Shown here: piece after piece, positions 900 to 36,240 of the stretch
Layout of the letters: each line of letters begins with the position of its first letter
How positions within the stretch are numbered: position 1 is the stretch's first letter
DNA from: Rhizophagus irregularis
Taxonomy: Eukaryota
Assembly (NCBI RefSeq): GCF_026210795.1
Contig: NC_089436.1
Location: forward strand, 2,418,001-2,482,000
Length of the DNA stretch: 64,000 nt
Reading direction: 5' to 3'
Notes under the pieces: generated by a model
The model's database searches: none
What the model was told of the DNA's origin: nothing
The model's input: only the letters and a program-made list of their open reading frames with translations
Translations under genes and position numbers: made by a program

Positions 900-3800
900 A
901 AATATCTGATGTTTATCCAGAATATATAGAAGAATTTAGTATAAAGATATCTGATTTCAATCCAATTAGTCTTACTGCCTATATACCACAGGTCGAAAAG
1001 TGAAAAATCAGGCATCAATCAGTCACCAATCGGTCACCAATCAGGTACCTGATTGGTGACCGATTGGTGCCTGATTGGCATTTTCGCTCGATCACCAATC
1101 AGGCAGTTTGCTAACTTTTGATCTAGTAATCAGAAAATGATGAAATATAGCTCATTGGAATCGTCTCAACAAGACGAATCTAATGGTAGTAAAATCGCAT
1201 TTCTAGGATTAATACATGATGAGAAATTAAATAAAATATAAAAATGAAAATGTATCATTTATATTTTATTTAATTTTTTATTAACTATTAATCCTAAAGA
1301 TGCGATTTTACTACCATTAGATTCGTCTTGTTGAGACGATTCCAATGAGCTATATTTCATCATTTTCTGATCACTGGATCAAAAGTTAGAAAACTGCCTG
1401 ATTGGTGACGGTATTTGGCGAAAATGCCAATCAGGCACCGATTGGTGCCTGATTTTTCACTTTTCGACCTGTGTACCTTTGCCAGAAACTTAGCCAAAAT
1501 GTAATTAATATTCAAAATAATGATGACTGGTATTTCGGGTGGAGTATTCTAGGAGCTTTGCATCATGTAAAAGTTCATACAGAGAGAAATCCACATCGGC
1601 TATATAGAGGTTTCATGGAGGAAGTTAATATGGAAGACATCCCAATTCCAATACCGGTCTCAATACCAGTTTATAAAAAGTTCGAAGAAAATAATTCTGA
1701 AATCAGTCTATATGTCTATGAATGGCACAATCAGAATGAATGTCTTGAATTTCGCTATGTTTCAGAAAGAAGAGGAGATGAATATAAGCAAGTAAATCTT
1801 CTAGTAATTAGTACGAAAGAAGAAAGAAGTCATTACTGTATTATTAAAGATTTACATAAGCTAGTATACAATCATAGCAAACATAAAGGGCGAAAATACC
1901 TCTGCCGTTATTGTCTCCATATATACTCTTCAGAGATAAAATATAATGAATATTTGCCAAAATGCAAGGGTCTAAATAATACCTCCCAGCGATCACAAAT
2001 GCCAGTTAAGAATAAAAGTATTAAAGCTTTTTATAACTATAAATGCATGCAACCAAATTCATATCGCATTTTCTAGGATCTTGAAATGTTGACTGAAAAA
2101 CTAATTTCAAAAAAGAAAATGAAGTTAACCCACACAGAAAGATTACAGATGCACAAGCTGTGTGGCCATTACTATGTAGTTGTTCGTATGGATAGTTCAC
2201 TCAACTATGAAATCATAAGTTAAGATTTATATAGGGGTCCAGATGCGCTTGAAAGATTTGTTACAAAAATCGAGAAGGAGCTGGCAAACATACAGAAGGA
2301 TTTATCTGTGCCTGCAGAAATGATAATGGCACTAAGAGATCTTAAAGTATACAATGAGGTGACAGAATGCTGGATTTGCAAGGGACCTTTTTTAAAACCA
2401 GCACCAGAGATAGTACAAAAACTTAAAGAAGCAAAGCATAATTTATTAGAAATCAAAGAATAGGAAACATGCATAGAAAAAGAACATTCTAAAAAGAAAG
2501 AGTTACAGAAAAGATATCGAGAAGCTTTAAATGTATTTAATCGAAAAGTAAAGGATCATGATCATATAAATGGAAAGTACTGAAGCCCAGCTTATGACTC
2601 TTGTAATAAAAAATTGTGAATAGGCTCTTTCAAAACCAAAGTGCCTCTTATATGTCATAATTTTTGGGAATATGACTCTCATCCGCTTATGAAAGTTGTG
2701 AACAAGTTTACGGCTGATAAGCTAAATTGCATCCCAGAGAATATAGGAAAGTACAAAGCTATGGATGTTAGCCAGCTCCGATTTCTTGATAGCTTTCAGC
2801 ATATGGAAATAGGATTAGATAAATTAGTAAAATGTCTAGAAGGAAAACTCGAAAAATTCACCCTAACTGTTAGGTACTTTACTGAGAAAGACTATTCAAT
2901 AGATAAGATTAAGCTTCTTTTTTGAAAGGGCGTTTTCCCATATGACTGAACAAATGCATAGGAAAAATTCGACAGAATAAGCCTTTTATCTAGAAAGGAC
3001 TTCTACTCACTTCTTAGTCAGCAAAATATTAGTAAAGAGGATTATGAACATGCTCATCAAAAGGTATGAAAAATATTTGAGATAAAGAACTTTGGAGAAT
3101 ATCATGATCTTTATCTTGAGACAGATGTACTTTTACTTGCAGATATTTTTATAAACTACACTATCATGTGCTTGAAAGATGACGGCTTAGATCCCTCTCA
3201 TTATGTTTCAACACTTGAAATGTTTAATGATTCTCTTTACAAAAGTAGCAGGGCAGAACTCAAACTCATGACAAATATGGATGAATATCTAATGGTAGAA
3301 AATGGCATTTGTGGTGGAATGACAATGGTAAGTCATTGATACGCCAAAGCAAATAATCTGCAATATCCAGACTATGAATCCAGTAAACCGAAGTTCTGGA
3401 TCTTATATGAAGATATGAACGCTTTATATTCAGGTGCGATGATCCAATATATGCCTACAGAAATCTTAGGTAAAGTAACTCCAGAGAAAATACCAGATAT
3501 TCAAAGCATAGCGCCAAATGCAGAAATAGGCTATACACTAGAAGTTGATCTAGAAGTCCCAGTGCACTTGCATGATTTCTTTGCAGATTACCCATTAGCA
3601 CCCAAAAAGCAGATAGTTCCAGAAGACTGGCTTAGCTTGTATAATGAAAAGTTAGTCAATGATAAAAAAGTCAGGGGTGGAAAATACATGTTTGGAGAGA
3701 AGTTAGTTCAGATCTTTTTTACTAAGAAAAATTATGTAGTTCACTATTGAACTCTCCAGACATATATAAAGTTCAGAATGAAAGTTGCAAAGATTCATAG

Positions 3801-4041
3801 CACTCTCAAGTTCAGGCAGTCTTCATAGATGAAAGATTATATTGAGAAAAACATTCGCAAGCGTAAAATTGCTAAAGCTAATAGGGACGAATTTGGGGTT
3901 ATGTATTATAAGCTAAAGAATAATGCAGTCTTTGGTAAACAGATGGAAAATGTTTGTAAACATATGAAAGTAGAACTACTTCAAATAGAAGAGGATAAAA
4001 AAATCAGGCGCTTAGCAAGTTCACCATTGTATGTAAATTGA
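900..4041 (+). pseudogene. polB: Protein-primed family B DNA polymerase (Maverick/Polinton-type) with endonuclease VII-like insert; many stops, 3'-truncated
   Basis: INIQNNDDWYFGWSILGALH, HYCIIKDLHKL, ExoI DLE, CWICK...KDHDHINGKY*SPAYDSCN (endo VII-like), ExoII HNFWEYDSH, FLDSF, ExoIII YLETDVLLLADIF, motif A YEDMNALYSGAM, motif B KLKNNAVFGK. Motif C (YxDTDS) is absent because of truncation. Confidence 0.9.
987..1473. mobile_element. Foldback MITE with CACAGG termini and 3-bp TSD (TAC), CMC/CACTA-like, inserted in polB
   Basis: CACAGGTCGAAAAGTGAAAAATCAGGCA at 987 and its reverse complement ending at 1473; TAC at 984-986 and 1474-1476; internal arms ~1100-1240 and ~1260-1410 are inverted copies. 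Removing the element and one TSD restores ...NPISLTAYIPLPET. Confidence 0.93.
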
Positions 4042-4149: not shown

Positions 4150-4450
4150 CTACCTAATTTAAATTGATTTGTGATCATATAAAAAGCAACATGACCAAGT
4201 CCGATAAAATATTAACTCCTGAATATCTGGATTGGCATGCCAAATTAAGTGGGTTACCGAGCATTTTGACGGATAAGATTTGTTCCAGCTTATACAAAAA
4301 ATATAAAAGAGAAATGGGACTTGAGCCATTGCAATTATCAGAAGGTCACCTTCTCGTAAATTCAAAGCCAGAAAGCTAAGTATCTGATCTATCTTTTTCT
4401 GAGCAATGTGAAGAAAAAGGGCCTATCACTTTTGAAGCCAAACCCGATCC
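4150..4450 (+). pseudogene. Fragment of an unknown protein between polB and the CMC transposase
   Basis: Protein-like frame LICDHIKSNMTKSDKILTPEYLDWHAKLSGLPSILTDKICSSLYKKYKREMGLEP; no recognisable domain. Confidence 0.35.
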
Positions 4451-4457
4451 AGAATTA

Positions 4458-6343
4458 AACCCGAAAATATTATTTACTTAGGTTTTTTGCCAGGATCGAA
4501 AGAAGTAGGGTTGGAACGTATTAACCATTATTTAGCCCATATTGTGGATGAGCTTTTAGAACTCTGGAAGGGCTGGAGAGTTCCAAAGACCTACCAATAT
4601 ACTGAAGGTTTAGACATAAAAGTTGCATTAATTATTGGATCATCAGATACACCAGCAACACGAAAGTTATTTGGGCATGGCTCAGCAGTAATGAAATGTC
4701 ATAGGTGTGAAAAGCGTAGTACTTATAGTGAAGTTTATAAAAAAACTCATTATGGAAGAATGCAAAAATATGATAAATGGGTAACAAATCCCATAAATCC
4801 TTCATTACATAGGCAATATGCTCATGAATGGTCGCAATGCAATTCGAAGTCCTCCAGAGATACACATTTTAAAGAACATGGTGTAAGGTAGAGCGAGTTG
4901 CTTCGCTTACCATATATGGATCCCATAAGATTTGCCGTAGTGGATCCAATGCATTGTCTTTTTCTAGGTATAGCAAAATGAATAATCAAATCCATTTTCA
5001 TTAATCAAAATAAGTTAAGCATGGAGCAACTTCGAATTGCACAAAAGAGAATGGATTATATTGAATTACCTTCTGATATCGGTAGAATCCCCCCAAAAAT
5101 TGCAATTAGAAATGAAGGTTTTTCAAATTTAATTGCTGATCAATGAAAAACTTTTATTATGATTTATTCCACGCTTATACTATGGAACATGCTAGATAAT
5201 AATAATAGAAAGATCTTAGGACATTTTGTTCGAGCATGTAATCTTTTAGTAGCAAGATTTATTACAGAAGATGATCTGAGAGAAGCGCAAGAGAGGTTGA
5301 AAGACATGGCTCACCTTATAGAAAGAACATATGGGCCAGAATTTATAACAAGCAACATACACCTTGCACTTCATATTCCCGACTGTTGCCGTGACTATGG
5401 TTCCATATATAGTTTTTGGCTTTTTCCATATGAGAGACTTAATGGATATATTGGTAAGATGTTTGTTGTTATGTTAATATTTTTTAAAAATAAAGAATAC
5501 AAATAAATCTATTATTATTATCCAGGATCATACCCTAATAGTAATCGACAAATAGAGCCTGAACTTATGCGAATCGTTCTTAAGAATACTTTAATAGATT
5601 ATCATTTATCTTATAAATGGTCATCTAGTCTTCTAAAAGAATCTCTTAGTCTTATTATGCCAAAGAAAGCTGTGGGTAGTTTGGCATTTACGGCAGAAAA
5701 GGATGAGTTACAACACTTTTTGTCCATGAGACATAATACATCTACGTTTTCCAAAATATATGGTACTGAGAAATTACCGGGTCAAATGCTTAATCCTTCA
5801 TGTTTCAAAGTTATTATACCTTTAGAATTGCGTAGATTTCTATGTGAATGGTATTCTATATTATATGAAAAAGAACAAAATGAAATATTAGGATTTATGA
5901 ACCTGGTAATTGATCAACACGCAAGATTACAAATTGGTGCTGAAATATTTGGATCTATGATTTCGGGTCATCAAGAAAAAAATGTAACTATTCTTGCAAA
6001 ATGGAAAGCGTCTAATGATGATTCAGTTGATATATACCCAGGAGATGTTTAATATTATTTTGAACATACACTTAGATTACCTGAAGGACCAAGAAAACAT
6101 CTTCTAGCATATGTTAAGTGGTATAAAAGTGCACCTTCCTCTGATATCCGGTTTAAACATAGATTCATAGAACCAGAGATATCAAATACCGAACTATGGC
6201 AAGCTGAATACTTTCAGGAAGGTTGTGATTCAATAATAGCTGTTCATAGAATACTATGTAGAGCTACAAAATTCAAAAGTGTGTGCGTAGGAAAAAGGAA
6301 ATATTTGTCAATAATACCATTAAATAGAAAATTTAATTTATAG
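4458..6343 (+). pseudogene. CMC (CACTA/EnSpm/Mirage, Transposase_21-type) DDE transposase, 5'-truncated, intron 5454-5525
   Basis: PENIIYLGFLPGSKEVGLERINHYLAHIVDELLELWKG, SSDTPATRK, CHRC, VDPMHCLFLG (DxxH), NIHLALHIPDC..DYGSIYSFWLFPYERLNG. The GT-AG intron joins to GSYPNSNRQIEPELMR. Four in-frame stops; terminal TAG at 6341-6343. Confidence 0.9.
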
Positions 6344-9387: not shown

Positions 9388-10695
9388 TTGTAATATTTGC
9401 TTTAGCCTGGAGGAAAATGTTATGAAATAGGGCTGGATATTTTATGACATTTTCTGCCTTCCAATTACTTTGTCCGGGGGTAGCCTGACAATTTGTCGTT
9501 GTCCGTTAGTTGTAGCAACCAGCATTTTTTTACAATATTATGATTTTAAGAAACAAAACTTTTTCAAAAATTTAATAAAGAAAGAACTAACTTAAAAATA
9601 TTATTTTATTATTCTTTACAAAACGCTGGCGCTGGAGTTATTTTTTCTCTCACTTATCAAATCCCAACATGTCCAAAAACTAATCATGTAGTACGCTGTA
9701 GTCTGGAACACCCGAGGTTTTTGACTACCTAGAGATGAAGTTGTAGGGTACTTCTGCCCGATAGGCTAGCCTCCTCTGACTTAAGGTCTTATTAATCGGA
9801 GAAGAGGTGGTTCCTAAGTACCTTCCACATCAAGAGCGGACATTTTTTGATACTGTACATCAAGGCGGTAATCCTATATCTGCGAATTCAAGAAAAAAAA
9901 TCTAAATCAAAAGAATTTGGAACCAACACATGTCAAGGTAATTTAAGCATTCTTTTTAAAAAAATTTAATCAAAGATTAATTTGGTTTATATACAGTAAA
10001 CCCAAGGAAAAAGAAGATATAATGTATTTTCAGAAGAATATGATAGTAACGCATATCAAGGTAACTTAAATATTTATTTTTTATTTTATTAAAAAAATAT
10101 AATAACAAGATCTATTTTCTCTTTAAATAGCAAACTTCGAAAAAGGAAGTGGAATAAAACTGGAATAAATATAAAGGTATATCAGATATTTTTTACTAAT
10201 TTTTATTTATATTATTAATATTTTTTTTAACACTCTTTCTTTTTTCTAATCTAACGATTATTTCTACTAATACTACTAAACATACTAACATTTTCTATCC
10301 ATTTTATTTTTCTTTTTTTTTACTAACATTTTCTAATACCATTCCTTTTCTTTAACAATTTCGTTTAACATTATTCATACTAATATCTTTATTACTAAAA
10401 TACTTTACTATTTCTATTTCTTTCTTTTAAATATTAAACAGATAAAAATATGCAGCAAATAAGTGAATACATTATTTTATACATAATTCTAATTTTTTAT
10501 ACAGCTAGAATAATTTTTATGATTTTTTGTAATTTTATTTATTTGTAATTAATTAACAATTAAATAAATAAATTAATATTATAATTGAATTTAAATTATA
10601 AATTTATTAGCATTCATATTATTGCATTAAATAAATATTATTTTTGATATGCGTTCAATAATAAAATCAGTAAATTATAGCTATTAGTCTATTAA

Positions 10696-13600
10696 CAGTC
10701 AGGCGATATGTCTGATGATCAGCAGGGGGTTTGCATTTTATAGTGATCTGCATAATAAAAAAATTTTTTTTTTCATAGTAAATTTTGCATTTATTATGAC
10801 GTTTCAGTACATTTGCATAATTGTAGCACAAATTGAATTATACGAATAGATAAATTGAGTAACGTGAATTATTTTTTATCATTTTTATTTTAAACTGCTT
10901 GTTCTTTATGGAGAATCTTCAATAATAAAGAGTATATTTCATTGCGAAATCAGCACAGTAGTACAATGGAAATGTTTGATTTTTATGACTTAAATGATCA
11001 AATAAGTGTGTTTTCTGATACAGACAGCGGGTTTAAGGAAAGTTATGATAATGAAGAATATGAAAATAACCAATATGAGGATGACTTCGTAATAGATTTT
11101 GATGAAGAAGGGTATTTTCGTGCATTAAATTCTTTAATTAATGAAACAGATGAAAGTGACATTGAACCTGATGATACAGAATCTGAATTGTCTGAAATTT
11201 CAGAACCAGACGAAGATTTTTATCAAGTCATTGGCCAAGATACTGATAGTAAATTAACGTCTTGTATTTTAATTGACTATATAGATGGAACATATCGAAC
11301 ATGTGGACAAGTTAATTGTAAGAAAAGGTTGCGGGAATTAATTGGCATCTGGCAGATTGATAGCGAAATAGTTACAGCAGTTAAAAATGATCTTTCAAAA
11401 TTAGGTGTGTGTATGTCTCACTTCAATTTTGATCAAAGAATTCATAAAAAAAAATAAAATCAATGACAAAAAGCACTGAGGAAAGTCGTATACAACAACG
11501 CCAATGTTTATTCTGTCATCAGAACCATCATTACTTTACAAGGGGAATTGGTTGTACACAACATTCATGGGTTATATTGGATAGAGTCATTCTTACGCCT
11601 TGCATTGGGCAGATAGATTGTTACGCGTTGAAAGAAAGTGGTAATTTTTGTAAATCTTCATTAAAGAACTTTTCCCGGCCTCGATTCTCATGTGGTAATT
11701 GTTTTGTTGATAAGGGTGGTCATTTATACACCAAGCCAGGTAAAGGTAAAAAAAAGAAGGTCGGATGTGAAGAGCATCATGTAGCAGATACATCTACACA
11801 ACTTGAAATTATCGGAAGATGGTTTATTAGAATAGCAAAGTTTGGTGAAGATAAATTTAAAAATAAAACTCTAGCAGCCATTGCACCTTCAATTTTTCAA
11901 ATTCTTCAAGAAATTCGTCCAACAAAACACACTTCTGAACCTACCATATCAGAATCAGTTTCAGAAGAAATTCCTGATGTTCCAAGTTTATTTATGTTGC
12001 ATGTTGGCATGCAACTAAAACAAATTAATATTGAAGTTATAACACAAGAGGATTTGAAAGATCAGTTTTGTCAAGATTTAGGAAAACAATTTGCATTAAA
12101 AATATGGAAATCTCGAATTGAATTAACTTTAAATAAGAATCAATTACAGAATCCACAATCCATAGGTGAATACGTATCCAGTTTTCCTTCATGGTTGGTA
12201 AATTTTTTTTATGCATTTTTAACTGGTATCTATGAAAAAAAAATGGCTATTGTAAATCAAAGACGAAAAGCAAGAAATATATCAATAAAAGCTAATGATC
12301 CAGTTCAAATTACCAAAATTGTTTCATTATTCTTATCCATTTTGATTAGCATTACCTTTCCTTCACTTCAAATCTGGTTTTCTACAATAATTGCCAGCCT
12401 TACACGAAAACCAAAAATGGCGGGTGATTTAACAAATCTTCTTGCTGTCTTAAAAGTTTTATCTGCACTGTAAGGAACATGAACGAAGATTAGAAAAAGA
12501 GAGAATGAATAAAGTAGATCCAACAAAGCGTTTAAAAAAAAATTCTTACTTTTGGAATCTAGCCGTAATAGACAATATAGACTTTAAGGAAAAAACTTTT
12601 TCCTATGGCAATATATTTGACATTACACGTGGCACATCACATGCAACTCTTCGAATGGTATTTCAAACACCTTTACAAACTCCTATTATTGAAACTAAAC
12701 ACGATGAAAAAGCATTGGTATCTCATCGAATTTTTGGAATAAATGTCACTGCACAGAAAATATTAGATCTTTATGATGAAATATTAGATGAATGTTTAGG
12801 ATTTTATTATTCTAATAATGATCATGAAAACTTACAATTTGAGACAAATTTTGATATTTCTACAGTACATAAAAAACTTATTGAAAGAATGGATCGAGGA
12901 TGTTTTGGAGACCTACAGCATGTAGTAATTTTGGAAGCGGGTGGTATTCCAAATACAAATGAGGGAATCTTTAATGCAGCAAAAATGTATAAAAATGATT
13001 TTTCGTTAAGTTCTGATGAATATTTGGATATCGTTGCTGATGAATCTATATTTCGGCGGTTAATAAATTTACGAAAAGAGTGGCCAAACCTTCGACCTAT
13101 TCTTGGTTCATGGCATACTAACAAAGATATGGCATCAGCTCTTATTAGTATATTCTCAAGCTACGGAATTTTTGATTTAGCTGCTGCAGTTGGAGTCAAA
13201 TATATAGACAAATTGGAGAAGGTTGTTGACTATCGGGCTACAGTCCGGATTATAGAATTAATTTGGGTTTCAGTTGGTATAGCTTTACGAATACATTTAA
13301 AGTCAAAAAATATGCATAAATATGATATTATGGATGACAAATATGAAGAATACCAAATACTTAAAATCTGGTATTTATTTTATAATTGGGCGGGTTTATT
13401 TATTGCACATAGAATTGGTATTCGAATAGGAAATTTTAATATTCAAAAGAATACTTTAGCTGCTTTTAGTCCCCTGCTTCCTTCAGCTGGAAAATCTAAT
13501 TATGCTCAATCGGTTTCACATTTCTTTGGAATTCTTGAACAATACCCCAAATTAGAGGAAAAATTGCAAGTTGCAGGGTCTTTTAAAGTATCAGAAGATA

Positions 13601-14843
13601 GATTTGGACATTTTATGGCATTTGACGAAGCTCTAGAAACATTCGGAGTAAAATTTATTAAGCAGAATGTTACAGGTAATGTTATAGATCAGGAAAACCT
13701 TAAGCGACAAGTGAAAGCATCTCAGTCAGAGTATGAACGAATAGAATTATTTTTGAATGAATATTTGCATAACAATACCTCTACTAATCATGAACGATCA
13801 ACAAATTTAAGAAAAGATGAAATGTGGAGTTTGGTGGAGAAATTGTTGATAGCTTTTGATACCAAAGATTTCAATCATTATAATCAAACACATGATCTTT
13901 TCCATACTTCATATCCAAAAGAGATTCATGCTGATGGAATAAGACGATTAAAGGAATGCTATAAGCGGGGACTTCACCGTATACATCTCATATATGCACA
14001 AGAAGTGTTAAAAAAAGAAAAAATTGATACTACAGGACGAAGGGTAAAAGAAGTATTAGTTACCAAATGTAAAGATATTGAAAAACCTCCCAGAAAAAGA
14101 AAAAACACAAATATTTTAGATAACCAACCTGGATCATCTGATGAACCACCTAAGAAGCGAGTACGTCGAATTCCATCAAAAGAAGCTGTTGAAATACTTG
14201 CCCCGATGGTGGCCCATTCTTTACCACCTACTAAAGAAGAAGTACAACGATATCTTGCTGCACTTGAAGGTATATCTTCATCTTCAGATATTTGGGACGC
14301 AGCTCGATTAACTCAGTATTATAAAAATCGACATAAAAAAGCTAAATAATGGCAAGGAAAACGGTTAATAACAATATTTGAAATTATAAAATAAAAAAAA
14401 ACATTTTAAATAAAAAAAACCTTATATTTGTTTACTAGTTAACTACATACTATATTATTTAAAATTACAATGTCACTTTAAAGCTCTATTATCTGTTATA
14501 TATCAAAACTAGTATTAGTGATAGTGTATGCGACTCAACTGGACTCGCAAATCTAAGATTACTTCCAAAATTGTAATATTTCTTCCGTTTGGAGAATCCT
14601 TGCCATAAGTACGAAAATTAAGACCATATTTAACTAATTAAAATAAGACCAGAAGCAGGAAAAAGTAAGAAATTTCTTTAGAAATGTATAGTTTGAAACT
14701 TGGAAAACGAAGTTTATTTAGAAAGAATTCGCAGTTAATATATGACAATTTGACGTTAATATATTCCCTAACTTCTACGAATGATTGTTACACAAAACAA
14801 TTTAATTAATGATCTGCACTCAATCAGACATATCGCCTGACTG
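10696..14843 (+). mobile_element. Full-length TIR DNA transposon, 21-bp perfect TIRs, flanked by TTAA; unclassified (DUF6589-like)
   Basis: CAGTCAGGCGATATGTCTGAT at 10696-10716 and ATCAGACATATCGCCTGACTG at 14823-14843; TTAA at 10692-10695 and 14844-14847; encloses one long coding region. Confidence 0.92.
10966..14349 (+). CDS. Putative transposase (~1,125 aa when two frameshifts are joined): acidic N-terminus, Cys/His clusters, DUF6589-like core, NLS-like tracts, homeodomain-like C-terminus
   Basis: ORFs 10942-11457, 11463-12473 and 12505-14349 join through single-base shifts at an A9 run (11446-11454) and near 12465. Motifs AVIDNIDF, TSHATLRMVFQ, DIVADESIF, LGSWHTNK, GKSNYA, FDEALE; RKRK and PPKKRVRR; WDAARLTQYYKNRHKK. 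The DUF6589 assignment is from memory of the motifs. Confidence 0.7.
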
Positions 14844-16822
14844 TTAAGCCTATTAGGTATACTTCAGACATGTATATCGGCACTATCTGATAAATGTACG
14901 ATATCTATCCGATATTTTACTATAATATATCGGGTATCTGATAAATCTATGATATGTGACTGATATTTGACTACCTGATATGTATAAGATATGTACATGA
15001 TGTTTACAATATATGTCACCGATTTTCTACATTTTTACTACACTTATCGGGCACCTGATATATGTAGTATTGTTAAATATCATACACATATATCACATAT
15101 ATTGCACACATATCGGGTACCCGATATGTACCCGATAACCTTCGATTTCGACTATGCGTTGCGTCTTCATAATTCTTTTGAAAGAGAGTTGATTATAAAA
15201 AAATATTTACTGATTATGAAAATACATACCTTTTATGACGTATTTTTATAATTACGTTTTGCAATTTCAAAGAATATATCATGAAAAATTCTTTTTACCA
15301 AATCACGTTAATATGACAGGAATTAACCAATTAAAATGTTGGTGTAATTGCTGATTATTCTAGAATCATTCCAGAACGTGATCTATTACACAATCCAATT
15401 TTGGAAATATCCCAGACTGAAGTAGTTAATATGCTATTTAAAGAGCTAACATGCATAGAATCAATTCCTAATATAATAATTTTCGTTAAATTTAATAAAT
15501 ATAACTGAAAAGTTGATATAAAAATTAAGATTCTAGAGCCGTTAGAAGCTTTTCTAATATATTAATAAAAATCAATATGTTTTCTGAAGTTGGAGAACCC
15601 ACACAGAATTAAGAAATATAATATCAAAATTAAGATTCTAAAACTAATAGAAGCTTTTCTAATATAATAAGAAAAATCAATATTGTTTTTAACGTTCTAT
15701 GACCTGTACACACAATGTTTCAGTGGGGGCTGGACCTTCAGTCCTTAAACTCCCACTTTCACATTGTATTCTTTTCTTTTTATAGGATTGTTCAGAATTT
15801 TTTTCTTTTTTTAAGTCAGTTCAAATTTTCTTTTTTTTTTTTGTAAGTTGGGTTCAGATTCTTTTTTTCTTTTTATAGGTTTTTTCAGTTTTGTTGCTTC
15901 AGAATCTTCTTTTTTTGTAGGTCAGTTTTGGATTTATTTTGTTGTTTTAGTTTCTTTTTCATCAGATGCTTCATAATTCTTTTCATTTATATAGATCAGA
16001 CATTCTGGAGTTCTCTTTCTTTTTTTGTAGGAATGCTAACTTTTGGTAACTTGGACGATTGCAGATACTATATGAAGGGGAAGTTTTGTTTCCAATTAAG
16101 TCAGTTAGACATTCTTATGTTTCTTTTTTTTATTTTTTTTAAGTTGTTTAACTTCAAATGAACCTGAACTTATAGATAATTTTGGTTGCAATAAGTGGTT
16201 TTAATAAGGAGAGAATTATTTGTATTTTATTTATTTTTTATTTTTTATTTAATTTAATAAAGTAAAATTAGATTTATGTAAATATAATTATAATAAACTG
16301 TAATACAAATAGTAAATTCAGTGACCAAATCATATAAATTTCATGATAAAATCAGTGATCAAATCATGTAAATTTCATATGAATTCTGTGCAAATTCTGT
16401 ATCCAAACCATATTTTTAGTAATACAAAATTATGCATTTTTTTGTATCCTATTATGATATGTTATTTTTAAGGAAAAAAATCATATAAAAACTTTATACC
16501 AATTTTTTTATAGGGTATATTGCTTTTTAATTTAATATGTTTTACTTTTCTATCACAAATTTTACTTTTTGATTTTATAAGTTTTATCATCATTTTATTC
16601 TTTACTTTTTTACATGAGTTTTATTCTTTATACTATAATTAATAGTCCTATTAAAAATAAATAAAGTATGAATTTAATAATTAATAAACTTTAATTAAAT
16701 GTTTTTTTTTAAACCATTATAATACAAAAAAAAATTTGCAAATAAAAGTATTGCAAATTTTTAACAAAAATAAATTAAAATTAACCAATTAAAATTGATT
16801 GGTGTAAAATATAAAATTTTTA

Positions 16823-17957: not shown

Positions 17958-18824
17958 TATATAGTCACACCAGTTGAATGTTCAAAACACTTTATTATTA
18001 AAATCTATCCTATATAGTCACAATCTATCTATAGTCACTATCACACCTATCCTCAAAAATCTTATATTAAAAAGAACCGTTTATAATCACAGTTATATAA
18101 AGAATATATTAAATAACTTGGCATCTAATAATCGTACAAAGATGTATCATAGCTTGTTAGAATCGTCTCACTGAGACGAATCGAATAGTGGTAGTTTTAT
18201 CCTTTTCCTTTCACTGGCTGACGAGTTATTCAACAAAATGTTAAACATCAGCATTATAATATTTCTTGATTTACGTTTACTGCGCCATTTAACATTTTGC
18301 TAGATTTCTCAGTACCTAGTGATTGTAGAAAGACGATTTATAGCTCGTTGGAATCGCCTCATCGAGATGAATCGAATGGTGGTAAGCTCAATATTGACGG
18401 AGTTATTACTTAAAAACCATTTAATATTTTTTAATTTTGGAAATTGATCTAGTGATTGGATTTCGATGTATCTTATACCATTAGATTCATCTCATCAAGA
18501 CGAATCGAATGGTAGTAAGATCGTCTTTCTAGGATTAATATTGGCAGAGTTATTACACAAAAACCATTAATATTTTTTTAATTTTGGAAATTAATCTAGT
18601 GATTGGATTTCGACGTATTTTATACCATTAGAACCGTCTCATCAAGACGAATCGAATGGCGGTAAGATCATCTCTCTACGATTAATATTGGCGAAGTTAT
18701 GATACAATAAAGTTTTAAGTATAATTCTGGCTAAAATTATGTTAATTTTTGGCCGGAATTATGATATACAAATATAAGAAATTTTTTATATAGTCACATC
18801 TCTTTATAATCACCAAATATTAAT

Positions 18825-20357
18825 ATCATCTCTTCCATTTTTCCTTCTGCTTTACGTTCAGAAGTTTTTGCTTTATTGCACGGATTGGACTCCCGCCTTC
18901 GTTAAAGATTATTCTGTCGCCACTGATTGTCTTCAATTACTTTCTTTATGGTCTTTGTATGTGGATGCTCCTTTTATTCCCAGAATGCTTAAAGAATCCA
19001 ACCACCTTTTGTGGTCCTCCATACGCACTATTATGTTGCAAAAGAATCTGGATGTTACCTTGATCAAGGTTCCTGCTCATGCTGATGACCCTTTGAATAA
19101 TCATGTGGATGCATTAGCCAAAGCCGCTCATACTGACTCACATCTTTCTTCTTGCCCACCATTGGAATTGATAGCTCCTTGCATTTTACAATTTAATTCC
19201 TTACCTGTGGATATGAATATCCGGAAATTTATTAGAAATATGTTTGACGCCAAAAGTCTTTTAACTCTTGCTGTATTACCAAGATTTAATTCCTATTCTT
19301 CAACTTCTGATATTGATTGGGCTTGCTCCAAATTTTGTCTCAATAACAATAAGCATTTTGTCTCTCATCGGAATGGCCGTTCTGAGTTTTGTGGTTTCCG
19401 TATCAAGCTACTTTTAGATATGCTTCCAACGCTTACAACTCTTCAGAGACGAAAGCCTCATCTTTATAATCCAAGTTGGCTTTGTCCTCAATATAATTCT
19501 TTTCCTGAGACTTTAGACCACTTGTGGACTTGTCCTTATATTTTACCAGAATTTAGCCCTTTACAAACTTTTAAAACATTACTATTGGCTCTTCGGACTA
19601 CTTATCTTGATAATTTCCTTTCCGCGTCATCTTTAATTCCTTTACCGGACTCTTTTGCTGCTGAATTTATGGCTCTTAATTGTTGGGATTGTGACCCTCC
19701 TTCAATTTCCTGCCTGCGACTCACAAGAGGACTTATACCGATATTTTTGACAGAATTTCTTGGAATTTATTTTTCTTCACCTACCATATGGTCTATCTTA
19801 GATACACCTTTGCACGACTTTCATTTTGACCTTTATGTTCAAATCTGGTTGTGCCGATCCATTTTCTTTCATTATTGGGAATTAGCTCAAGGCATTACAA
19901 AGAAAATGAAATCGTCAGCTCTTGGGCCTTCTTCTATTCTTCGACCTTCCTCTAACATTCTTCTTGACTCTTCGACACCTTCCTTGGCGACAGCTTTCTT
20001 GGATTCCTGGGTTTCTTGGGTTTCCTCTTCTATAATCCGTGGGGGATCTTGGATTTCGCATTTGGATTTTTGGCGTCGCTTAACAGTTCAGCCTCTACTT
20101 AGGATTTCTTTTTGGTAACGGATTGGATCTTAGGACATGCTGGATAGTTGACTCACACTGGCCTTCGGGTAAAGATGGGGTATGCGTTTCTGTAATAGTT
20201 TAGTTTTTCTTTACTTAATTTTATTTTGTTTAGATTTCTTTACTTGTATGAATCGTGAAGCTAGTTCTTTTTATTTTTTATGTTTAATTCTTATATTTGA
20301 TATTTGTAATATTGTTCGATCTGTTTATTGTACTTTTCGTTTAAATTTAATAATAAA
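18825..20357 (+). mobile_element. 5'-truncated non-LTR retrotransposon (RNase H C-terminal part, CCHC-type finger, 3' UTR)
   Basis: ORF 18868-20118: ATDCLQLL, NHLLWSSI, LIKVPAHADDPLNNHVDALAK (RNase H), LPTLTTLQRRKPHLY, CPQYNSFPETLDHLWTC. T-rich 3' UTR ending in an A-rich tail; exact ends uncertain. Confidence 0.85.
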
Positions 20358-20759: not shown

Positions 20760-23700
20760 CTAAACAACCCGTTCAGAAGCTTTATGCTTTGCGCAACTTC
20801 TAATATTATGACCTTTTTCTAAACAATGACTACACGTCTTGGAAGAAGAAGTTATATTTTGTTTATTGGCCATTTCTGTTACCGCTTTATAACGTTTCGG
20901 AGGACGGCCTTTTGGCTTGTGGTACTCTGGATTTGATATCTCTGGAATGCGATTATTATCTATCACAACTAATGGTTGTCGTTGGCAACTATCCTTTGAG
21001 GAAAGACCTTCTTGAACTTCTTCAATATTTAGTCCTGTAGTGCGTCAATATTTCATTATAAATTGTGTGAGAAGTCCAGTCAGTTCCCCTGTTGCACCTT
21101 CTGTCACAGCAATTTGGACACTAGTTTTTGCCATAGACATTGCACTACCAAATTCGATCCTTTTATCAGCCATTTTCTTAATAGTTGATGTATAAACGTT
21201 GCCTGTTCGAATTTGATCAATGTAGTGCAATGGTTTGATTGAGTAAGTTTTATTTCCTTGAGCAATTGTGGCGTATCTTGATGTTTCAGATGGCATGGAC
21301 TCAAACCAACGCGTATGAATGAAGCCCATATGGAATACGGCTTTATCAGATTGAAGTAGAATACGATATTGATGTCGGCATAGCATCCCTTGATTAATAA
21401 TATTCATGCATGTACAAAATGATGTTGCGTCTGCAAGAATCGCTACATAGTGTGGTTTAGCTGTAGATGATGTTATTGTTATATAGCTAACCTCCCATAT
21501 TTCCTGAATTTCGGTATTATCTAGGTTTGATAAAAGGTCTTGCAATCGGATTTGTGGCATATCATACATATATTCCACTATATCTGAAGGATTATTTTCA
21601 GGTTCGTTAACCTTTAAATCAATTGGATTAGCATACTACAAACATTATATTAAAATGAAAGCTTTGTAACTACTCACTTGATCTATTGTAATTAATGTTC
21701 CCTGGTATAATAATGCCTGTTTCATTGTGCCCTCTGAAGTGATAATGGTATAGGTGCTAAACATTCCTTTAAAATAGAATCAATGTCTTTAAAGATGGAG
21801 TTGTATGCTGATAGAAGACCAACATCAGGAAATTTGTTTAGGCGTAATTTAGTGTAATATTTCGAAGGTGATGTAAAATTTCGAAATATTACACTAAAAA
21901 CGTAATATTACAAAAGTTTACGCTCTTAAATTTGAATAATTATAGTAATTTAAGAATATCTCGCTATCTACTGATCCAATCAAGACGATCTATAGCTCAT
22001 TGGAATCAGCTCATCAAGACGGATCGAATGGTAGTAAAATCGCATTTCTACAGTTGATAGAACGCTCTATAGTATGCAGTAAAGTTTTAAATTAATAGAA
22101 AGTCATCTATTAAACGTAAAGATACGATTTTACTACCATTCGATTCGTCTTGATGAGCTGATTCCAATGAGCTATAGATCGTCTTGATTGGATCAGTAGA
22201 TAGCGAGATATTCTTAAATTACTATAATTATTCAAATTTAAGAGCGTAAACTTTTGTAATATTACGTTTTTAGTGTAATATTTCAAAATTTTACATCACC
22301 TTCGAAATATTACACTAAATTACGCCTAAACAAATTTCCTGATGAATTGTTGGGTTTGATCCATAATAATCATTAAGACGTTTGTAATATGATTCTTTAT
22401 CTAATTCACGTTCGACTTCCCTTACTAGCTCCTTTAAAAGTGTACCAGTCAAGATGCTTTTTAAGAACACCATTAATGGATTCGACCCGTTGAGTTGACT
22501 CGACCCCTGCTGTGAATACCTTCCCGATGGCATACCTCGCCCATGATTCTCGGCTTGAATAAAGTTTTTTCTCAAGATAAGTTCGACATGGCTCATATTT
22601 TGTGAGCATCTCTTTGTATCTTAATTCGAATTGGCATTGAGTATAGCTATTGCGCATGTGATGAAAATCTCCAATGAAATTATTGATCATCTCTCCATGC
22701 AATTTAGACTTAGCTTTCTTCTTTACATTTTCTGTAATATGATAGATACATAGTAGGTGTCGAGTTTGTGGATAAGTATTCTGAACGGCAGCTATCATCG
22801 CCGGATCGCCATCTGTGAATAACACAACAGGTGAAAGATTACTTGTGGCTTCTAAAGTGCATTGCAATATCCAATTATAGTCAGCTAACGTTTCATATTT
22901 TGTTAGTGCTTGAGCGAGGATCCTTGTTTTAAAGTTGTTGTCAACACCAACAAATAAGCTAAGGGCCATTTCATATCGATTCGTCTTGGCTGTATTGTCT
23001 TGTATGACAATATCATGATATTTAGGCCAAAGTTCATTACGCTGTTGACTTGTCATCCAAAAAAGCCCAGTGAGTTCATTAGATGGTCCTTCCAATCGTG
23101 CTATAACAATAAAATCGGGATCCTTACTACGCTGCTCTATAAGATATGAGAACATCGTTGCCGCGTCAGACTCATCATGAATTCGAACTCCCGGAACTTT
23201 TGAATTGCGTTGTATAGATTTTTTTTCTTTATGTGATGTTGAGGAAATTCTTTAAGAAGGAGATCGTACTGTTGTCCAGCACTTAAATGTCCATTGATGG
23301 TGTAATGTTCAATTTTATCCAGAACTACTTGTGGAAAACGTTGATTCATAGGAGCGAGTTCTATAGTTACTGGATCACATTGATGATTATGAATATTGTT
23401 GAATTTGGTAAGATGTATGGCGGTCGCGCGTTTTCCAAAATTAAATGATGCTTGCCATGAACAATTTGTTTTGGTTGTAGTAGCATCACGGTGTAATGTA
23501 ATATCTTCGACTTTCTTCGGTTTACTGATTCCAGATTTCCAACAAGTATAGACACGTCGTCGAACGATCATTTTATCAACTTCATCAAGATCTTTACGGA
23601 ATTTAATAGCAACAAATCCGTTTTGTTTTGCGTACTGATTGATAATTACATCAACCTCGTTCCAGTTTTTAAAGGTATCACCAACTTTTAGTATTACTTT

Positions 23701-24090
23701 GTTTGCATTCGTGTTTTCATCGTTATAACGTCCATTTGTATTTTCGTTATCATCTATAACTACAATGTTTGTAGTTTGGAATGGTGATTGGCTTTGATGA
23801 TCAAACTCTATAAGCGGCGTTATAAAGTCAGATTGGCCTTGGTGATCGAACTCCATAAGTGGCATTACAAAGTTAGTTTGGGATGTTGATTGGCCTTGAT
23901 GATCAAACTCCATAAGTGGTGTTACAAAGGTAGTTTGGGATGTCGATTGGCCTTGATAATCGAACTCCATAAAAGAAATTACAAATGGTTGATATTCGAA
24001 CTCCATAAACGGAATTACAAAATTAGTTTGGGATGGTGATTGGCCTTGATATTCGAATTCCATAAGCAGCGTTACAAAGGTACTTATCAA
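20760..24090 (-). pseudogene. MULE transposase (FAR1, MULE DDE, SWIM, CCHC knuckle); frameshifted and interrupted by a MITE; intron 21612-21677
   Basis: VGDTFKNW..YAKQNGF, RRVYTC, TKTNCSW, HNH; QDNTAKTNRY, FTDGDPAM, HLLCIYHI, STQRVESING; FCTC...GMLCRH; KGRPPKR, CSHCLEKGHNIRSC. The true start may lie upstream of 24090. Confidence 0.92.
21823..22344. mobile_element. Foldback MITE (522 bp), CATCAGG termini, probable 2-bp TSD (AA), inserted in the MULE transposase
   Basis: CATCAGGAAATTTGTTTAGGCGTAATTTAGTGTAATATTTCG and its reverse complement; arms near-identical for >200 bp. Removing the element and one AA restores YYGSNPTIGLLSAYNSIFKDID. An alternative reading is 21826-22341 with an AT TSD. Confidence 0.92.
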
Positions 24091-24863
24091 ACACGGTTGG
24101 TACTCTTTTACAGTTTTACCTAAGTCTTCTATACAAACTAATTCTTATTGATGTACTGTAGGTTGCAAAGTGAAAGGTAAAAATGAAACCAGTGGAAACA
24201 ACAATAATGAAATTAAATACTTTAGATACTAGTGATACTACTTCCTTACCTTCAAATTATTTATCAAACCACGATAAATTGGCAATAATCGTTAGCTAAA
24301 GAAATCTTTATGGGTTTTAAGTGAGATACAAGATCATGAGAGAAAGTAACCGTGATAAAGCTAAACAATGACGAAAGGCATATGATAAAGTCGAAAACAG
24401 TCACGCGTTGTGATAAATAACCATGCGTATAAAAAAATTTGCATGACACCGGTGATGATCACCGCTAGTGATTTATAGCAATTTTATTTTTTGGAGTATA
24501 AAAAATTCGCATGACACCGGTGATGATCACCGCCGGTGATTTGTAGCAATTTTAATTAAAAAAACTTGTAGAGTAGTCAAAAATACATATAATATAAGGT
24601 TTTTTATAATAGTACATAATAAGTACATAATAAGATCTTATACCAGAATTTTTTAAAAAATAAAAAATCTTAATAAAGTTATATGATCAAAATGATTGAT
24701 CATAATTAATATATAAAAATTACCAAAAAAAAGAAATGTGATATATTACAGGTATAAAAAAAATATATTTTATTTTTAATAATATAATTCAATTACTTGA
24801 ATCTTGTAATCACCAGAAATTGAAAATAAGGTCTTTATGGCTAAGATAATCTGTTAGTCTATA

Positions 24864-27524: not shown

Positions 27525-30346
27525 ATGGAAAATATTTTAGACCCAAATTTTTCCTATAGTCCTGACATGTTATTCAACTCTTATTATGATTCTTCATATA
27601 GTGGTTCAGATTTGCTTAACAGTTATCAATACGAATCTCCTGACCTACCAATATTTGAATTTTATGGTTCTTCGTATGATTCTTCTGATCTATTTCTTGA
27701 AGATCATGATACACTTAATGAAACCCAAATAGGAAATGTAAGAAGAATGGATGTTTCAGAAAATGAGGATATAAATAGATATGATTTTCGGAAGATGAAA
27801 GAATAAATGGCTGGTATGATGTTTCAGATGATGAAGATAGAAATCTTAATCATCAAGAACGGGAATATGATGATAGCGAGTATAAGGAAGAAGAGAATAA
27901 ATTAGAATTAAATCAAGTGATGGAATTTGAAACATGGGAACTTGCCGAATTATACCTTAATGAATATGCAAAGCAACAGGAATTTTCTTTTCGTAAAAAA
28001 AGACGTATACTGGATCCAACTGACAGTACAATAACAAGATGTAAAACATATGAATGTTCACATGCCCGAACTTATGAGATCCAAAAGGTTATTTTAGAAG
28101 AAAATAGAAGGGATAGGGATTCCGAAATGATTGGGTGTCTTTGGCATATTAATCTTTCTTTTCCCAAATCTGGAAATGGTGTTCGTATTAATAGTATAGT
28201 TGGGATACATAATCATGATATGAATCCTTGCATTACCGAAATAGCCCCAAAATTTCGAAAATTGACAGATAAAATGCTTAAGAAAATAAAGTTTTGGACG
28301 ATTGAAGGAAGATTAGGCATACCAACTCAATATAACTTACTAGTAGCCTCATTTCCAAATAAAGTGATTAATAAGAAAGATCTAAGTAACGCTATTCAAC
28401 AGTTTAAAAAACAAGCGAAACCTATTAAGAATGATGCATGTCAAATGCTTACTGAGCTATACTTAAAAAAAGATGATGATCCAAGATGGATCATAAAGCC
28501 ACGCTTTGATCATGGAGAGAGAAGACTAAACTCATTATTTTGGATGTCACCCGATCAAGTTAATGCATATGAAAGATACCATGATATTGTGATTATTGAT
28601 ACAACATCCAAAACTAATCAATTTGATATGATATTAATTCTAATCATTGTGGTTGATAATAATTTTAGAAATATAATAGTTGCTGCAGCAATTTTGGAAG
28701 ATGAAACAGAAGCAACTTTCACATGGATTTTACAAGAATTAAAAAATTCTTGTGATCTTGCACCAACAGTCCTATATTCTGATGCTGATCCAACCTTAAT
28801 ATCAGCCATAAAGACAAATTATCCAGAAACACACCATTTCCATTGTATTTTTCATATAGATTTAAATCTAAAAAAGAATCTTAAAGGGAAATTGCGTAAT
28901 CAATTTGAACTTTTTCGCGCTAAATTCTTAGAAATGCGCAATTCTTTATGTCATAAAACATTTAAAATAAAATGGAATACACTTATTGATGAATTTTCAG
29001 CTTGTGAACAATATCTTACAAGAGCTTTATATCCTTGTAAAAGTAGTTGGGCTTGTTATATATGCTATCAATCAGAATTTCACAGCGGGAATTCAAAGTA
29101 CACAATGGGTAGAGTCTACTAATATAATAATCAAAGATAGATTAAATAGATCTTTGTGTTTGACTGATGTTGTTAAAGAAATTCAAAAAATATTTGATCA
29201 ACAATCAAAAAAAGCAATATTAAACGAATGTAAAAATGAAATTCCTACTAGAGGAATACCATCAATTATGGATGAATATTTTCCAGAACTTGATAAAATT
29301 CTGCGAGAATATTTAACTCCTCAGATTCTTCAAAAACAACATGATCAAATGGTCCAATCGTTATGTTATGATGTGGAATTAATTGAAGATTGGTTACCGC
29401 TCTTAGAAGTAAGTATATTGCTAATGGTTGATAAGAAAATTATTAGTACTTGTTTAAAATGATAAAGACAATTATTAAAAAAAAATACTTCCCTTTTTTC
29501 CGTCTTTTTTCATAGATGGTAGATGATTCTTATCAACAAGAAATGGCCAGAGAGGATGATTATGATCAACCTCAATCTCTATTTTCTTCATTAATCAAAA
29601 ATATACCCTATAATAGTATTCGGCAAGTATGGAAAGCAACTAGACATTGTGGACAAAAATCTGAACCACAACATATCATTCTACTTGATGACGGGTCGCA
29701 TTTATGTACCTGTCTTTGGCTCATTAATAAAGGAATTGTGTGTAGGCATTTCTTTCGGGTTATGTCCTATTCAATTAATGCACAATTTCATATATCTCTT
29801 ATTCCTCAACGATGGTATAATTATAACAAGTATAATATCGAACAACAACATAAAGAACCGGTATACCAAATTGAAGAAAATGAATTAGAGAAAGGTCCGC
29901 GATTATCATTTCAACATCTTGCAAATTTTAGGCAAACTCCTAATATTGTACAACCTCGAGGTCCTAAACAAAAATATGGGTTTGGTATGGGATATGCCAA
30001 AAAAGCACTTGATTTGGCTATTCGGGCTGACAAAGTTGATGAATTTGTCAATCAAATTGAATATTTTATTGAAAGTGTAAAGTCGGAACTATCTGACCAG
30101 CAGGAAAATATGCATATTGGTGATCCGTTACGAGTAAGACATAAAGGTCGACAACCTAATAGGTATAAGTCATGTGGTGAACCTCAAAAAAAGAAAGTAA
30201 GGCGTATCCAGGATATAACTAATACTACTACTAATAAAAATCGTAAAGAAGACGTTGTAGCAAGCCAAGAGGGAAAAAAGAAAGAAAGGCGTTGTAAAAA
30301 TTGTAATCAAGTTGGACATTATGCTCCAAGATGTCCGAATATCTAA
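27525..30346 (+). pseudogene. MULE transposase (FAR1, MULE DDE, SWIM, CCHC); two frameshifts; intron 29409-29515
   Basis: FETWELAE..YAKQQEF, YECSH, GCLW, HNH; IDTTSKTNQF, YSDADP, HFHCIFHI, STQWVES; HLCTC...GIVCRH; KGRQP, CKNCNQVGHYAPRC. Shifts near 27790 and 29060. Confidence 0.92.
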
Positions 30347-33300: not shown

Positions 33301-33921
33301 TTTTTTTTTTTAAGATTTAATATCGGATGTAGGTTATATAACGAAAATAATAATCTAAAAAAGAAATCATGGTTTTTTTTTTAAAAAAAAAATGATTTTA
33401 TATAACTAATTAAATAAAATCAAATTTTTTTTTTTTTTATGAAAAGCCAAGATTTATTTAGTCGGAAATCTAGAATCATTTTTTAATTATATAATTATCA
33501 CAATCATATTATAAGAGGGAAGTTTTTTTTGGTAATGATTTTACGATTATGGCGGGATATCATCAATGCTAAGGATTTGCCTAAGCACCGGCTAAACCTT
33601 ATCTACTTTTTGTGGTCAACAAAAGTATTAACTAGTTATACTTAGTCGTTAGTCATCCTGGTCATCATCAAGAAGCATGAAGTACAACATAAATTATTAC
33701 ATTAATAGTTGTATACATGTATTATTATAATTATAATTATAATATAATAATAATAATATAATATATATATATATATTATGAACTAAGAAATTCTAACAAC
33801 AAAATTCTTTTTTTTTTTTTTTTTGAAAAAAAAAAAATAAGAAAAAAAAAAGAAAAAAATTCTTTTCCTTCTTCTTTTAATTTAAATAATTATCTTATTA
33901 TTATTATATATTATAATAATA

Positions 33922-36235: not shown

Positions 36236-36240
<5 letters not shown>
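33922..36240 (+). CDS. F-box domain / leucine-rich-repeat (RNI-like) protein, intact single exon, 772 aa
   Basis: LPAECLQHIFAHL...LHSCLLVNRLWC...LWSQPF (F-box), PTFNYIEFLRYLD, repeated LxxLxL units, HCPNLTHF; poly-Asn and Ser tracts; no interruptions. Confidence 0.88.

What the first reader, a model, noticed from the sequence alone, without database searches (positions are those of the whole stretch)
10692..14847. Complete TTAA-flanked TIR transposon encoding a DUF6589-like protein: candidate unclassified DNA transposon family
Seen: perfect 21-bp TIRs (CAGTCAGGCGATATGTCTGAT), TTAA on both sides, and one ~3.4-kb coding region filling the element. Established: TTAA duplication is typical of piggyBac (CC termini) and Kolobok (RR termini). 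Neither these termini nor the protein motifs look like those families to me. Inference: IDNID / VADE / GSWH / FDEALE form a D-D-(H)-E RNase H-fold core with a helical insertion, matching my recollection of DUF6589. This would tie a domain of unknown function to a defined cut-and-paste element. Because TTAA is palindromic, a TA duplication with 22-bp ACAG...CTGT TIRs is equally consistent with one copy.
Basis: partly seen in the sequence, partly recalled or inferred. Interest (0 to 1): 0.88.

Follow-up and report, generated by a model that had tools for sequence, protein, structure and literature searches.

The report
Single-gene Academ transposon in mycorrhizal fungi
This is a complete cut-and-paste jumping gene of a root-symbiotic fungus, present at this spot in some samples and absent in others, whose single enzyme matches the little-studied Academ group but carries neither helper enzyme of the two described Academ branches, so it is likely a simpler third branch and likely still able to move.

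Summary
There are perfect 21-bp TIRs (10696-10716, 14823-14843), TTAA on both sides and one coding region (10966-14349). The window splits it by two 1-nt frameshifts that short-read contigs lack; intact 1127-aa copies are on record in Rhizophagus irregularis, one on 7 contigs. An empty site with a single TTAA stands in 3 of 4 runs. The predicted fold is an RNase H/DDE core with a helical insertion. The element is not unclassified: its four catalytic motifs match a published Academ profile (49 bits; 500 shuffles 26±4.5, max 45). DUF6589 is only a weak match. What differs from described Academ: no helicase and no nuclease partner, an unassigned N-terminal Cys/His domain, a C-terminal homeodomain-like domain, and short CAGTC TIRs flanked by N-TA-N across Glomeromycota relatives. 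A 4-bp duplication is favoured over TA but not proven. Academ is already listed at class level in these fungi, and Repbase and the key Academ paper could not be checked. Verdict: new variant of a known superfamily; an intact, probably active test case.

The parts
10692..10695 (.). Left target-site duplication TTAA (or TA at 10693-10694 under the rival reading)
   Evidence: empty site keeps one TTAA
10696..10716 (+). Left 21-bp TIR, CAGTCAGGCGATATGTCTGAT; family consensus covers the first 17 nt
10717..10752 (+). Two subterminal GATC-N-GCA motifs (10717-10724, 10745-10752); candidate transposase-binding sites (inferred)
   Evidence: ATGATC in 10 of 18 family ends against 0.86 expected, maximum 4 in 200 shuffles
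10966..14349 (+). Transposase gene, 1127 aa when intact, apparently intronless; broken in this assembly by two 1-nt indels
10966..11253 (+). Acidic, predicted disordered N-terminus
   Evidence: pLDDT under 50 for residues 1-79 of the homologue model
11254..11816 (+). Cys/His-rich domain (residues 97-284; 15 Cys/His at least 95% conserved in 99 proteins), predicted zinc-binding; no known family
11446..11457 (+). Frameshift 1 in an A run; contigs of X1, X3 and X7 carry one more A
   Evidence: table 4
12454..12473 (+). Frameshift 2; contigs of X1, X3, X7 and X17 lack one base at 12465
   Evidence: table 4
12535..13743 (+). DDE/RNase H-fold catalytic domain with helical insertion: D536 (12571; D539 is the alternative), H559, D692 (13039), W716-H717, D887, E891 (13636); Academ-type motifs
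14137..14346 (+). C-terminal homeodomain-like three-helix domain (residues 1058-1127)
   Evidence: Z 8.8, rmsd 2.5, 68 aligned; WUSCHEL homeodomain E 5.7e-4
14811..14818 (-). Subterminal motif TGCAGATC next to the right TIR
14823..14843 (-). Right 21-bp TIR
14844..14847 (.). Right target-site duplication TTAA

Best explanation
This is a 4148-bp TIR DNA transposon of Rhizophagus, present at this site in some samples and absent in others, whose one 1127-aa transposase matches the Academ superfamily but comes without a helicase or nuclease partner, so it likely moves by cut-and-paste with that enzyme alone and likely duplicates 4 bp of a TA-centred target. Mechanism step by step. (1) Shown: TIRs, an empty site and ends joined to other flanks. 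(2) Predicted: D536 (or D539), D692 and E891 form the metal-binding triad of an RNase H fold with a helical insertion. (3) Inferred: the Cys/His domain and the homeodomain-like tail bind the 17-bp TIR core and the subterminal ATGATC motifs and pair the ends. (4) Inferred: the ends are cut at CAG...CTG and joined to an N-TA-N site (TTAA for this family) with a 4-nt stagger that host repair fills in. (5) Inferred: it was mobile recently, and the frameshifts are errors of this assembly.
For: Mobility: joint 10691 to 14844 (skip 4152, 4 letters fitting either side) in X3, X7 and X17; filled site in X1; the left end in X7 and the right end in X17 run into other flanks and keep TTAA. Intactness: frameshift 1 is absent in 3 of 3 covering runs and frameshift 2 in 4 of 4. 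Three 1127-aa records differ from each other by 2-3 residues, and one sequence is on 7 contigs. Fold: best VIA match is P-element transposase (Z 11.2, rmsd 4.3, 257 aligned for the core model), then retroviral integrases, Hermes, Tn5, RAG and Transib. Academ: the profile consensus DNwD, h-t-q, vltgDqply, lgffHiek with G 17 later, and DealE with K 8 later is matched in order and spacing by DNID, HATLRMVFQ, IVADESIF, LGSWHTNK..G and DEALE..K. A four-block score gives 49.1 bits against 26.1±4.5 (max 44.9 of 500 shuffles); four control ORFs score 18-34. No partner: the element has room for one gene only; no helicase or XPG family appears among 118 homologues, 23 scanned homologues or 33 ORFs of related loci. 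Family ends: 5 of 13 full-span related loci carry CAGTC TIRs; 16 of 16 terminal motif hits have TA at -3/-2, against 0 of 3 internal hits. The base next to CAG differs between the two ends in 3 of 6 elements, while TIR positions differ in 6 of 102 (P 0.004), so it behaves like target DNA.
Against: Only 2 of 6 two-ended elements show an exact 4-bp duplication, whereas all 6 fit TA; the 4-bp reading needs the other four to be collapsed contigs with flanks of different copies (their flanks are only 69-230 bp). The Academ test used four hand-picked blocks (43 of 465 states) chosen after I saw the resemblance; the whole profile was not run, and the D2 and H blocks often chose another place in homologues. 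No real AcademH or AcademX sequence was in my tree. Foldseek gave no match at E 0.001 or better. 8 of 13 full-span related loci showed no CAGTC TIR pair. The flank has about three times the element's depth in X3, X7 and X17, so the empty sites may be paralogous copies of a repeat. 10 of 84 eligible homologues lack the homeodomain-like tail.
Confidence: 0.82

Rival explanations
1. Same element and enzyme, but the duplication is TA (2 bp) and the TIR begins one base further out with a variable first base (ACAG here), inserted at the centre of palindromic TTAA or ATAT sites.
For: All 6 two-ended elements duplicate TA, and under this reading their rebuilt empty sites are all TTAA or ATAT palindromes (flanks). 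L005 is symmetrical for 6 more bases. The empty site fits both readings.
Against: The extra base is A, T or C and differs between the two ends in 3 of 6 elements, unlike TIR positions. All four junctions of this family that were seen read TTAA. The TSD lengths reported for Academ are 3-4 and 9-10 bp.
Confidence: 0.18
2. An ordinary, already catalogued Academ family: Repbase, Dfam or the AMF repeat libraries already hold this element under 'Academ-1' or similar, so only the description here is new.
For: 'Academ-1' is listed among R. irregularis TE classes and DNA/Academ among Glomeromycotina superfamilies; Academ is reported at low copy in most fungal taxa.
Against: None of the passages read describes termini, TSD or domain layout for these families; searches for Academ with homeodomain and with XPG found 0 papers. 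In 2017 Repbase held fungal Academ only from Puccinia graminis.
Confidence: 0.35
3. A separate superfamily-level lineage related to Academ and P elements rather than a branch of Academ.
For: Best structural match is P-element transposase; DUF6589 scores are near or below cut-off; word-based searches returned no named hit outside Glomeromycota; the N-terminal domain has no known family.
Against: The invariant Academ profile positions (D3, N4, D6, H223, D450, E454, K462) are all matched with their local spacing; ESM Atlas places the core with DUF6589 clusters of molluscs and basidiomycetes at 0.94-0.95.
Confidence: 0.1
4. A Kolobok, piggyBac or Sola3 element, the superfamilies with TTAA targets.
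For: TTAA flanks; Kolobok and Sola3 are abundant in R. irregularis.
Against: Termini are CA...TG, not RR...YY; no C/DxxH between D692 and E891; no piggyBac Pfam family; the Sola3 profile is 131 states with a different first-D motif against a 355-residue triad span here; relatives use non-TTAA targets.
Confidence: 0.02

Closest known systems
Academ superfamily, AcademX lineage (Kapitonov and Jurka 2010; Kojima 2020, not held; traits from PMC10045372 passage)
   Same: Academ-type DDE motifs; TIRs; short TSD (3-4 bp reported; 4 bp favoured here); one protein; no helicase.
   Different: No nuclease domain (XPG by my recollection) is found; C-terminal homeodomain-like domain and a different Cys/His N-terminus instead; fungal host; TA-centred target; 4.1-4.8 kb against a mean of 5565 bp for bivalve Academ.
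AcademH lineage (Kojima 2020; traits)
   Same: Academ-type transposase; occurs in fungi including Mucoromycota; DUF6589-like core.
   Different: No helicase gene in the element or beside relatives; 4-bp (or 2-bp) instead of 9-10-bp TSD.
Pfam DUF6589 (PF20231)
   Same: Matches the insertion-domain part of the core in relatives (up to 28.3 bits, cut-off 27); ESM features 0.95.
   Different: The window protein itself has no hit; the family is a fringe match, not a core member.
Drosophila P-element transposase (PDB 6p5a)
   Same: Closest solved fold: RNase H core with helical insertion (Z 11.2).
   Different: 8% identity; P has a 7-8-bp TSD and the C/DxxH signature, both absent; no THAP hit.
Kolobok and piggyBac
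   Same: TTAA duplication at this site.
   Different: Termini, signature motif and Pfam family all differ; TTAA is not family-wide.

Membership tests
Academ superfamily | DDE transposase with RNase H fold and large insertion between second D and E | tested here: met
   AlphaFold models and VIA matches to P, integrases, Hermes, RAG; D536/D539, D692, E891 are 96-99% conserved in 99 proteins
Academ superfamily | Similarity to the Academ catalytic-domain profile | tested here: met
   Four motif blocks of the Muszewska 2017 profile: 49.1 bits against 26.1±4.5, 0 of 500 shuffles reach it; blocks hand-picked, full profile not run
Academ superfamily | Terminal inverted repeats | tested here: met
Academ superfamily | TSD of 3-4 bp or 9-10 bp | tested here: inconclusive
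   4 bp favoured but TA fits all 6 two-ended elements
Academ superfamily | Convergence or phylogenetic nesting with Repbase Academ proteins | not testable with these tools
   No Repbase; tree has no Academ reference
AcademX | Nuclease domain encoded with the transposase (nuclease; XPG is recalled) | tested here: not met
   No XPG family in 23 scanned or 118 listed homologues; the 200 residues after the core model as helices plus a homeodomain-like bundle
AcademX | 3-4-bp TSD | tested here: inconclusive
   as above
AcademH | Helicase gene | tested here: not met
   One gene fills the element; 0 of 33 ORFs from related loci hit a helicase family
AcademH | 9-10-bp TSD | tested here: not met
   Empty site skips element plus 4; 10-bp flanks do not repeat
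Kolobok | TTAA TSD | tested here: met
   at this site; not in most relatives
Kolobok | 5'-RR...YY-3' termini | tested here: not met
   CA...TG, or AC...GT under the TA reading; rule
Kolobok, hAT, P, MuDR, Dada | C/DxxH between second D and E | tested here: not met
   none in P0267 residues 692-891; rule
piggyBac | DDE_Tnp_1_7 domain and CC termini (recalled) | tested here: not met
   no Pfam hit; termini CAG
Sola3 | Compact catalytic core (131-state profile) | tested here: not met
   triad spans 355 residues; first-D motif differs (only the first 16 states were read)
Pfam DUF6589 | Score at or above the curated cut-off of 27 bits | tested here: inconclusive
   window protein no hit; 2 of 13 relatives at 27.0 and 28.3 bits; 7 of 118 homologues carry a precomputed hit

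The most novel reading that the evidence does not exclude
An undescribed third Academ lineage, neither H nor X, spread across Glomeromycota. It transposes with one intronless protein that uses a homeodomain-like tail (swapped for a chromodomain in one member) and a new Cys/His fold, makes short TA-centred duplications without any accessory enzyme, and is active today in R. irregularis. It would be the simplest entry into Academ biochemistry and a native transposon tool for a fungus that lacks good genetics.
Probability: 0.5. Interest if true: 0.65.

Novelty: new variant of a known kind. Interest (0 to 1): 0.5.

Why it matters
Kojima linked Academ TSD length to the accessory enzyme: helicase with 9-10 bp, nuclease with 3-4 bp (passage in PMC10045372). 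A lineage with a short TSD and neither enzyme suggests that the short stagger is the transposase's own default and makes that idea directly testable. The element is compact, intact in several near-identical copies and polymorphic, so it is a practical substrate for a first excision assay or structure in this superfamily (that none exists is my recollection; one search found no PDB sequence match). It also names a large family of 'hypothetical proteins' (421 representatives at E 1e-30 or better) in genomes where two-thirds of repeats are unclassified, and supports reading DUF6589 as an Academ transposase domain.

Tried and rejected
No whole genome is held for this window, so a genome-wide TIR and flank table could not be made. 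PDB sequence search with the core piece: 0 hits. Foldseek on both models: no match at E 0.001 or better, Hermes first or second. The N-terminal Cys/His domain: no informative PDB or Pfam match; it was not folded alone, so its fold is untested rather than new. The TIR in viral contigs: 0 matches. No RNA holder was listed; X17 is only guessed to be RNA, so nothing is claimed on expression. In-frame stops in metagenome relatives are mixed TGA, TAG and TAA at codons such as Arg and Trp, so an alternative genetic code was rejected in favour of decay. Programmed frameshifting or introns at the two breaks were rejected because contigs and database proteins read straight through. A 9-10-bp or symmetrical 3-bp TSD was rejected. 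Part 44 of the Muszewska supplement held the end of the KDZ profile, not the Kolobok states, so Kolobok was tested by termini and signature only. The AcademH paper and Yuan and Wessler 2011 are not held; their supplements, and the TE library files of the AMF papers, which I could not see, bear on the novelty claim. Earlier findings by sequence and place: nothing; by combined words: nothing.
Full report
Observation. The arms at 10692-10716 and 14823-14847 are 25 nt and fully complementary: TTAA plus a 21-bp TIR beginning CAGTC. The TIR occurs twice in the window and never in 100 shuffles. Between the TIRs (4148 bp) lies one coding region, 10966-14349, in three pieces, with 270 and 494 bp of non-coding DNA at the ends.

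Host and intactness. Homologues of 1118-1250 aa come from Diversispora epigaea and Rhizophagus irregularis. Three R. irregularis records of exactly 1127 aa match the three pieces at 99-100%, differ from each other by 2-3 residues and read straight across both breaks; one of them is on 7 contigs. The window is therefore R. irregularis or a very close relative. Contigs of four public runs were laid on 10630-14960. X1 carries the element with both of the window's flanks and lacks both frameshifts; X3 and X7 lack them too; X17 covers only the second and lacks it, though its copy has other indels. The window's frameshifts are most likely assembly errors; a private decayed copy is less likely, given X1.

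Mobility. Three of the four runs (X3, X7, X17) hold a contig that joins 10691 to 14844, which removes the element and one TTAA. In X7 the left end, and in X17 the right end, runs into a different flank and still shows TTAA. The flank has about three times the element's depth in those runs, so the target is itself a repeat and the empty sites may be paralogous. They show the pre-insertion sequence either way. Twenty runs from 10 studies hold the stretch or part of it.

Family ends. Of 79 metagenome loci, 13 span the gene with flanks on both sides. Four gave CAGTC-starting inverted repeats de novo and a fifth by motif; these elements are 4.1-4.8 kb. One locus (L015) has a different TIR of at least 187 bp, one a distant imperfect repeat, and six none. 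A terminus motif hit 19 places: 16 terminal, all with TA at -3/-2, and 3 internal, none with TA. The 17-bp consensus over 18 ends (two added by eye; the first five letters were part of the search) is CAGTCA(G/C)NGGA(C/A)AT(G/T)TC, and a subterminal ATGATC motif is enriched (10 of 18 ends, 0.86 expected).

TSD length. Only the window and L006 show an exact 4-bp duplication; all six two-ended elements fit TA. The four mismatched contigs have flanks of 69-230 bp, as collapsed multi-copy contigs with mixed flanks would. The base next to CAG differs between ends in 3 of 6, while TIR positions differ in 6 of 102 (P 0.004). I put about 80% on 4 bp (N-TA-N, TTAA for this family) and about 20% on TA.

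Protein. AlphaFold models of an intact homologue (mean pLDDT 73.9) and of the window's core (pTM 0.78) show an RNase H-type sheet with the first D on strand 1, the second D after strand 4, WH after strand 5, about 170 helical residues, then the E helix. VIA ranks P-element transposase first (Z 11.2), then integrases, Hermes, Tn5, RAG and Transib; Foldseek gave nothing significant. The last 70 residues match homeodomains by structure (Z 8.8) and by profile (WUSCHEL E 5.7e-4, with other homeodomains below), and are found in 74 of 84 eligible homologues. Residues 97-284 hold 15 Cys/His at least 95% conserved and occur in 109 of 111 long homologues, with no known family.

Classification. I read nine parts of the profile file of Muszewska et al. 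2017 (PMC5751038), seven of them covering about 170 of the 465 Academ states. The Academ consensus DNwD, h-t-q, vltgDqply, lgffHiek..G and DealE..K recurs in order and local spacing. A score over four blocks gives 49.1 bits for the window piece (500 shuffles: 26.1±4.5, max 44.9), 45.5-55.5 for 21 homologues and 18-34 for four other window ORFs. The blocks were chosen after I saw the likeness, and the two middle blocks are weak. Kolobok fails on termini and on the C/DxxH signature, piggyBac on Pfam, Sola3 on core size, P on TSD. Within Academ, AcademH has a helicase and 9-10-bp TSDs and AcademX a nuclease and 3-4-bp TSDs (passage in PMC10045372; that the nuclease is XPG is recalled). Neither enzyme is found in the element, in 118 homologues or in 33 neighbouring ORFs. 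It works like an Academ element and belongs to the superfamily by motif, but fails the defining feature of each named lineage. A tree of 58 cores puts the window's protein next to a D. epigaea protein (0.999) and CAGTC-ended loci on both sides of the midpoint root; it holds no Academ reference and cannot place the clade. All named hits are Glomeromycota; these searches depend on shared words and do not bound the range.

DUF6589. The link is real but marginal. One paper in the library names DUF6589, as a possible virulence or epigenetic factor of rust fungi and not as a transposase (passage). Earlier notes of this scan equate DUF6589 with AcademH transposases; I had reached the Academ reading before seeing them and treat them as leads only.

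Prior knowledge. Academ is already recorded at class level in R. irregularis (PMC11075540: passages and two supplement rows) and in Glomeromycotina (PMC11952901: passages), without termini, TSD or domain layout in what I read. Searches for Academ with homeodomain, transposase and DDE and with XPG and transposase found 0 papers; searches listed none that describes this layout by title or abstract start. Also seen: PMC9587614 (abstract, background, start of results) and passages of PMC10799480, PMC4455052, PMC5199201, PMC10294476, PMC12210899 and PMC5753468. Kojima 2020 and Yuan and Wessler 2011 are not held, and Repbase and Dfam could not be searched, so novelty of the lineage is open.

Verdict. 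A genuine, polymorphic and probably still active DNA transposon; not an unclassified superfamily but a single-gene, partner-free variant of Academ with a homeodomain-like tail and a short TA-centred duplication. Interest 0.5.

Noticed in passing
window 10630-10691 and 14844-15140: The insertion target is itself a repeat (about three times the element's depth in X3, X7, X17) with degenerate 34-50-bp direct and inverted repeats on the right; possibly the end of another, non-coding element.
   Followed up: partly
P0196 (residues 805-853): A relative ends in a chromodomain (E 8e-15) in place of the homeodomain-like tail, which suggests tail swapping in the lineage.
   Followed up: partly
L015:1-185 and 5691-5877: A sister-clade member with an intact 1160-codon frame has inverted repeats of at least 187 bp and no CAGTC terminus within the contig.
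   Followed up: partly
L013:8349-9018, L014:5833-6502, L030:657-1234, L053:3025-3802, L038:1100-1601: Tandem repeats of about 165 bp (about 125 bp in L038) flank other sister-clade transposase genes; their ends were not found.
   Followed up: no
L010:1-3060 and 3491-3835: A relative lies beside a family B DNA polymerase gene and an RNase H2 subunit B-like fragment; probably host genes.
   Followed up: no
window 4436-4891, 22406-24144, 27785-30346: Fragments of a CACTA-type transposase (Transposase_21) and two broken MULE/FAR1 transposases.
   Followed up: partly
window 33886-36240 and 45439-45891: An F-box-like gene with Asn-rich tracts and a protein-kinase fragment.
   Followed up: partly
window 1453-3750 and 18778-20118: ORF pieces that look by eye like a Polinton-type DNA polymerase and a retroelement RNase H/zinc-finger region; no Pfam hit at E 0.001, labels recalled.
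   Followed up: no
P0209, P0228: Gene models of the same element that drop 33 residues or more as introns, including the WH motif in P0228, against intact 1127-aa records: likely annotation errors.
   Followed up: partly
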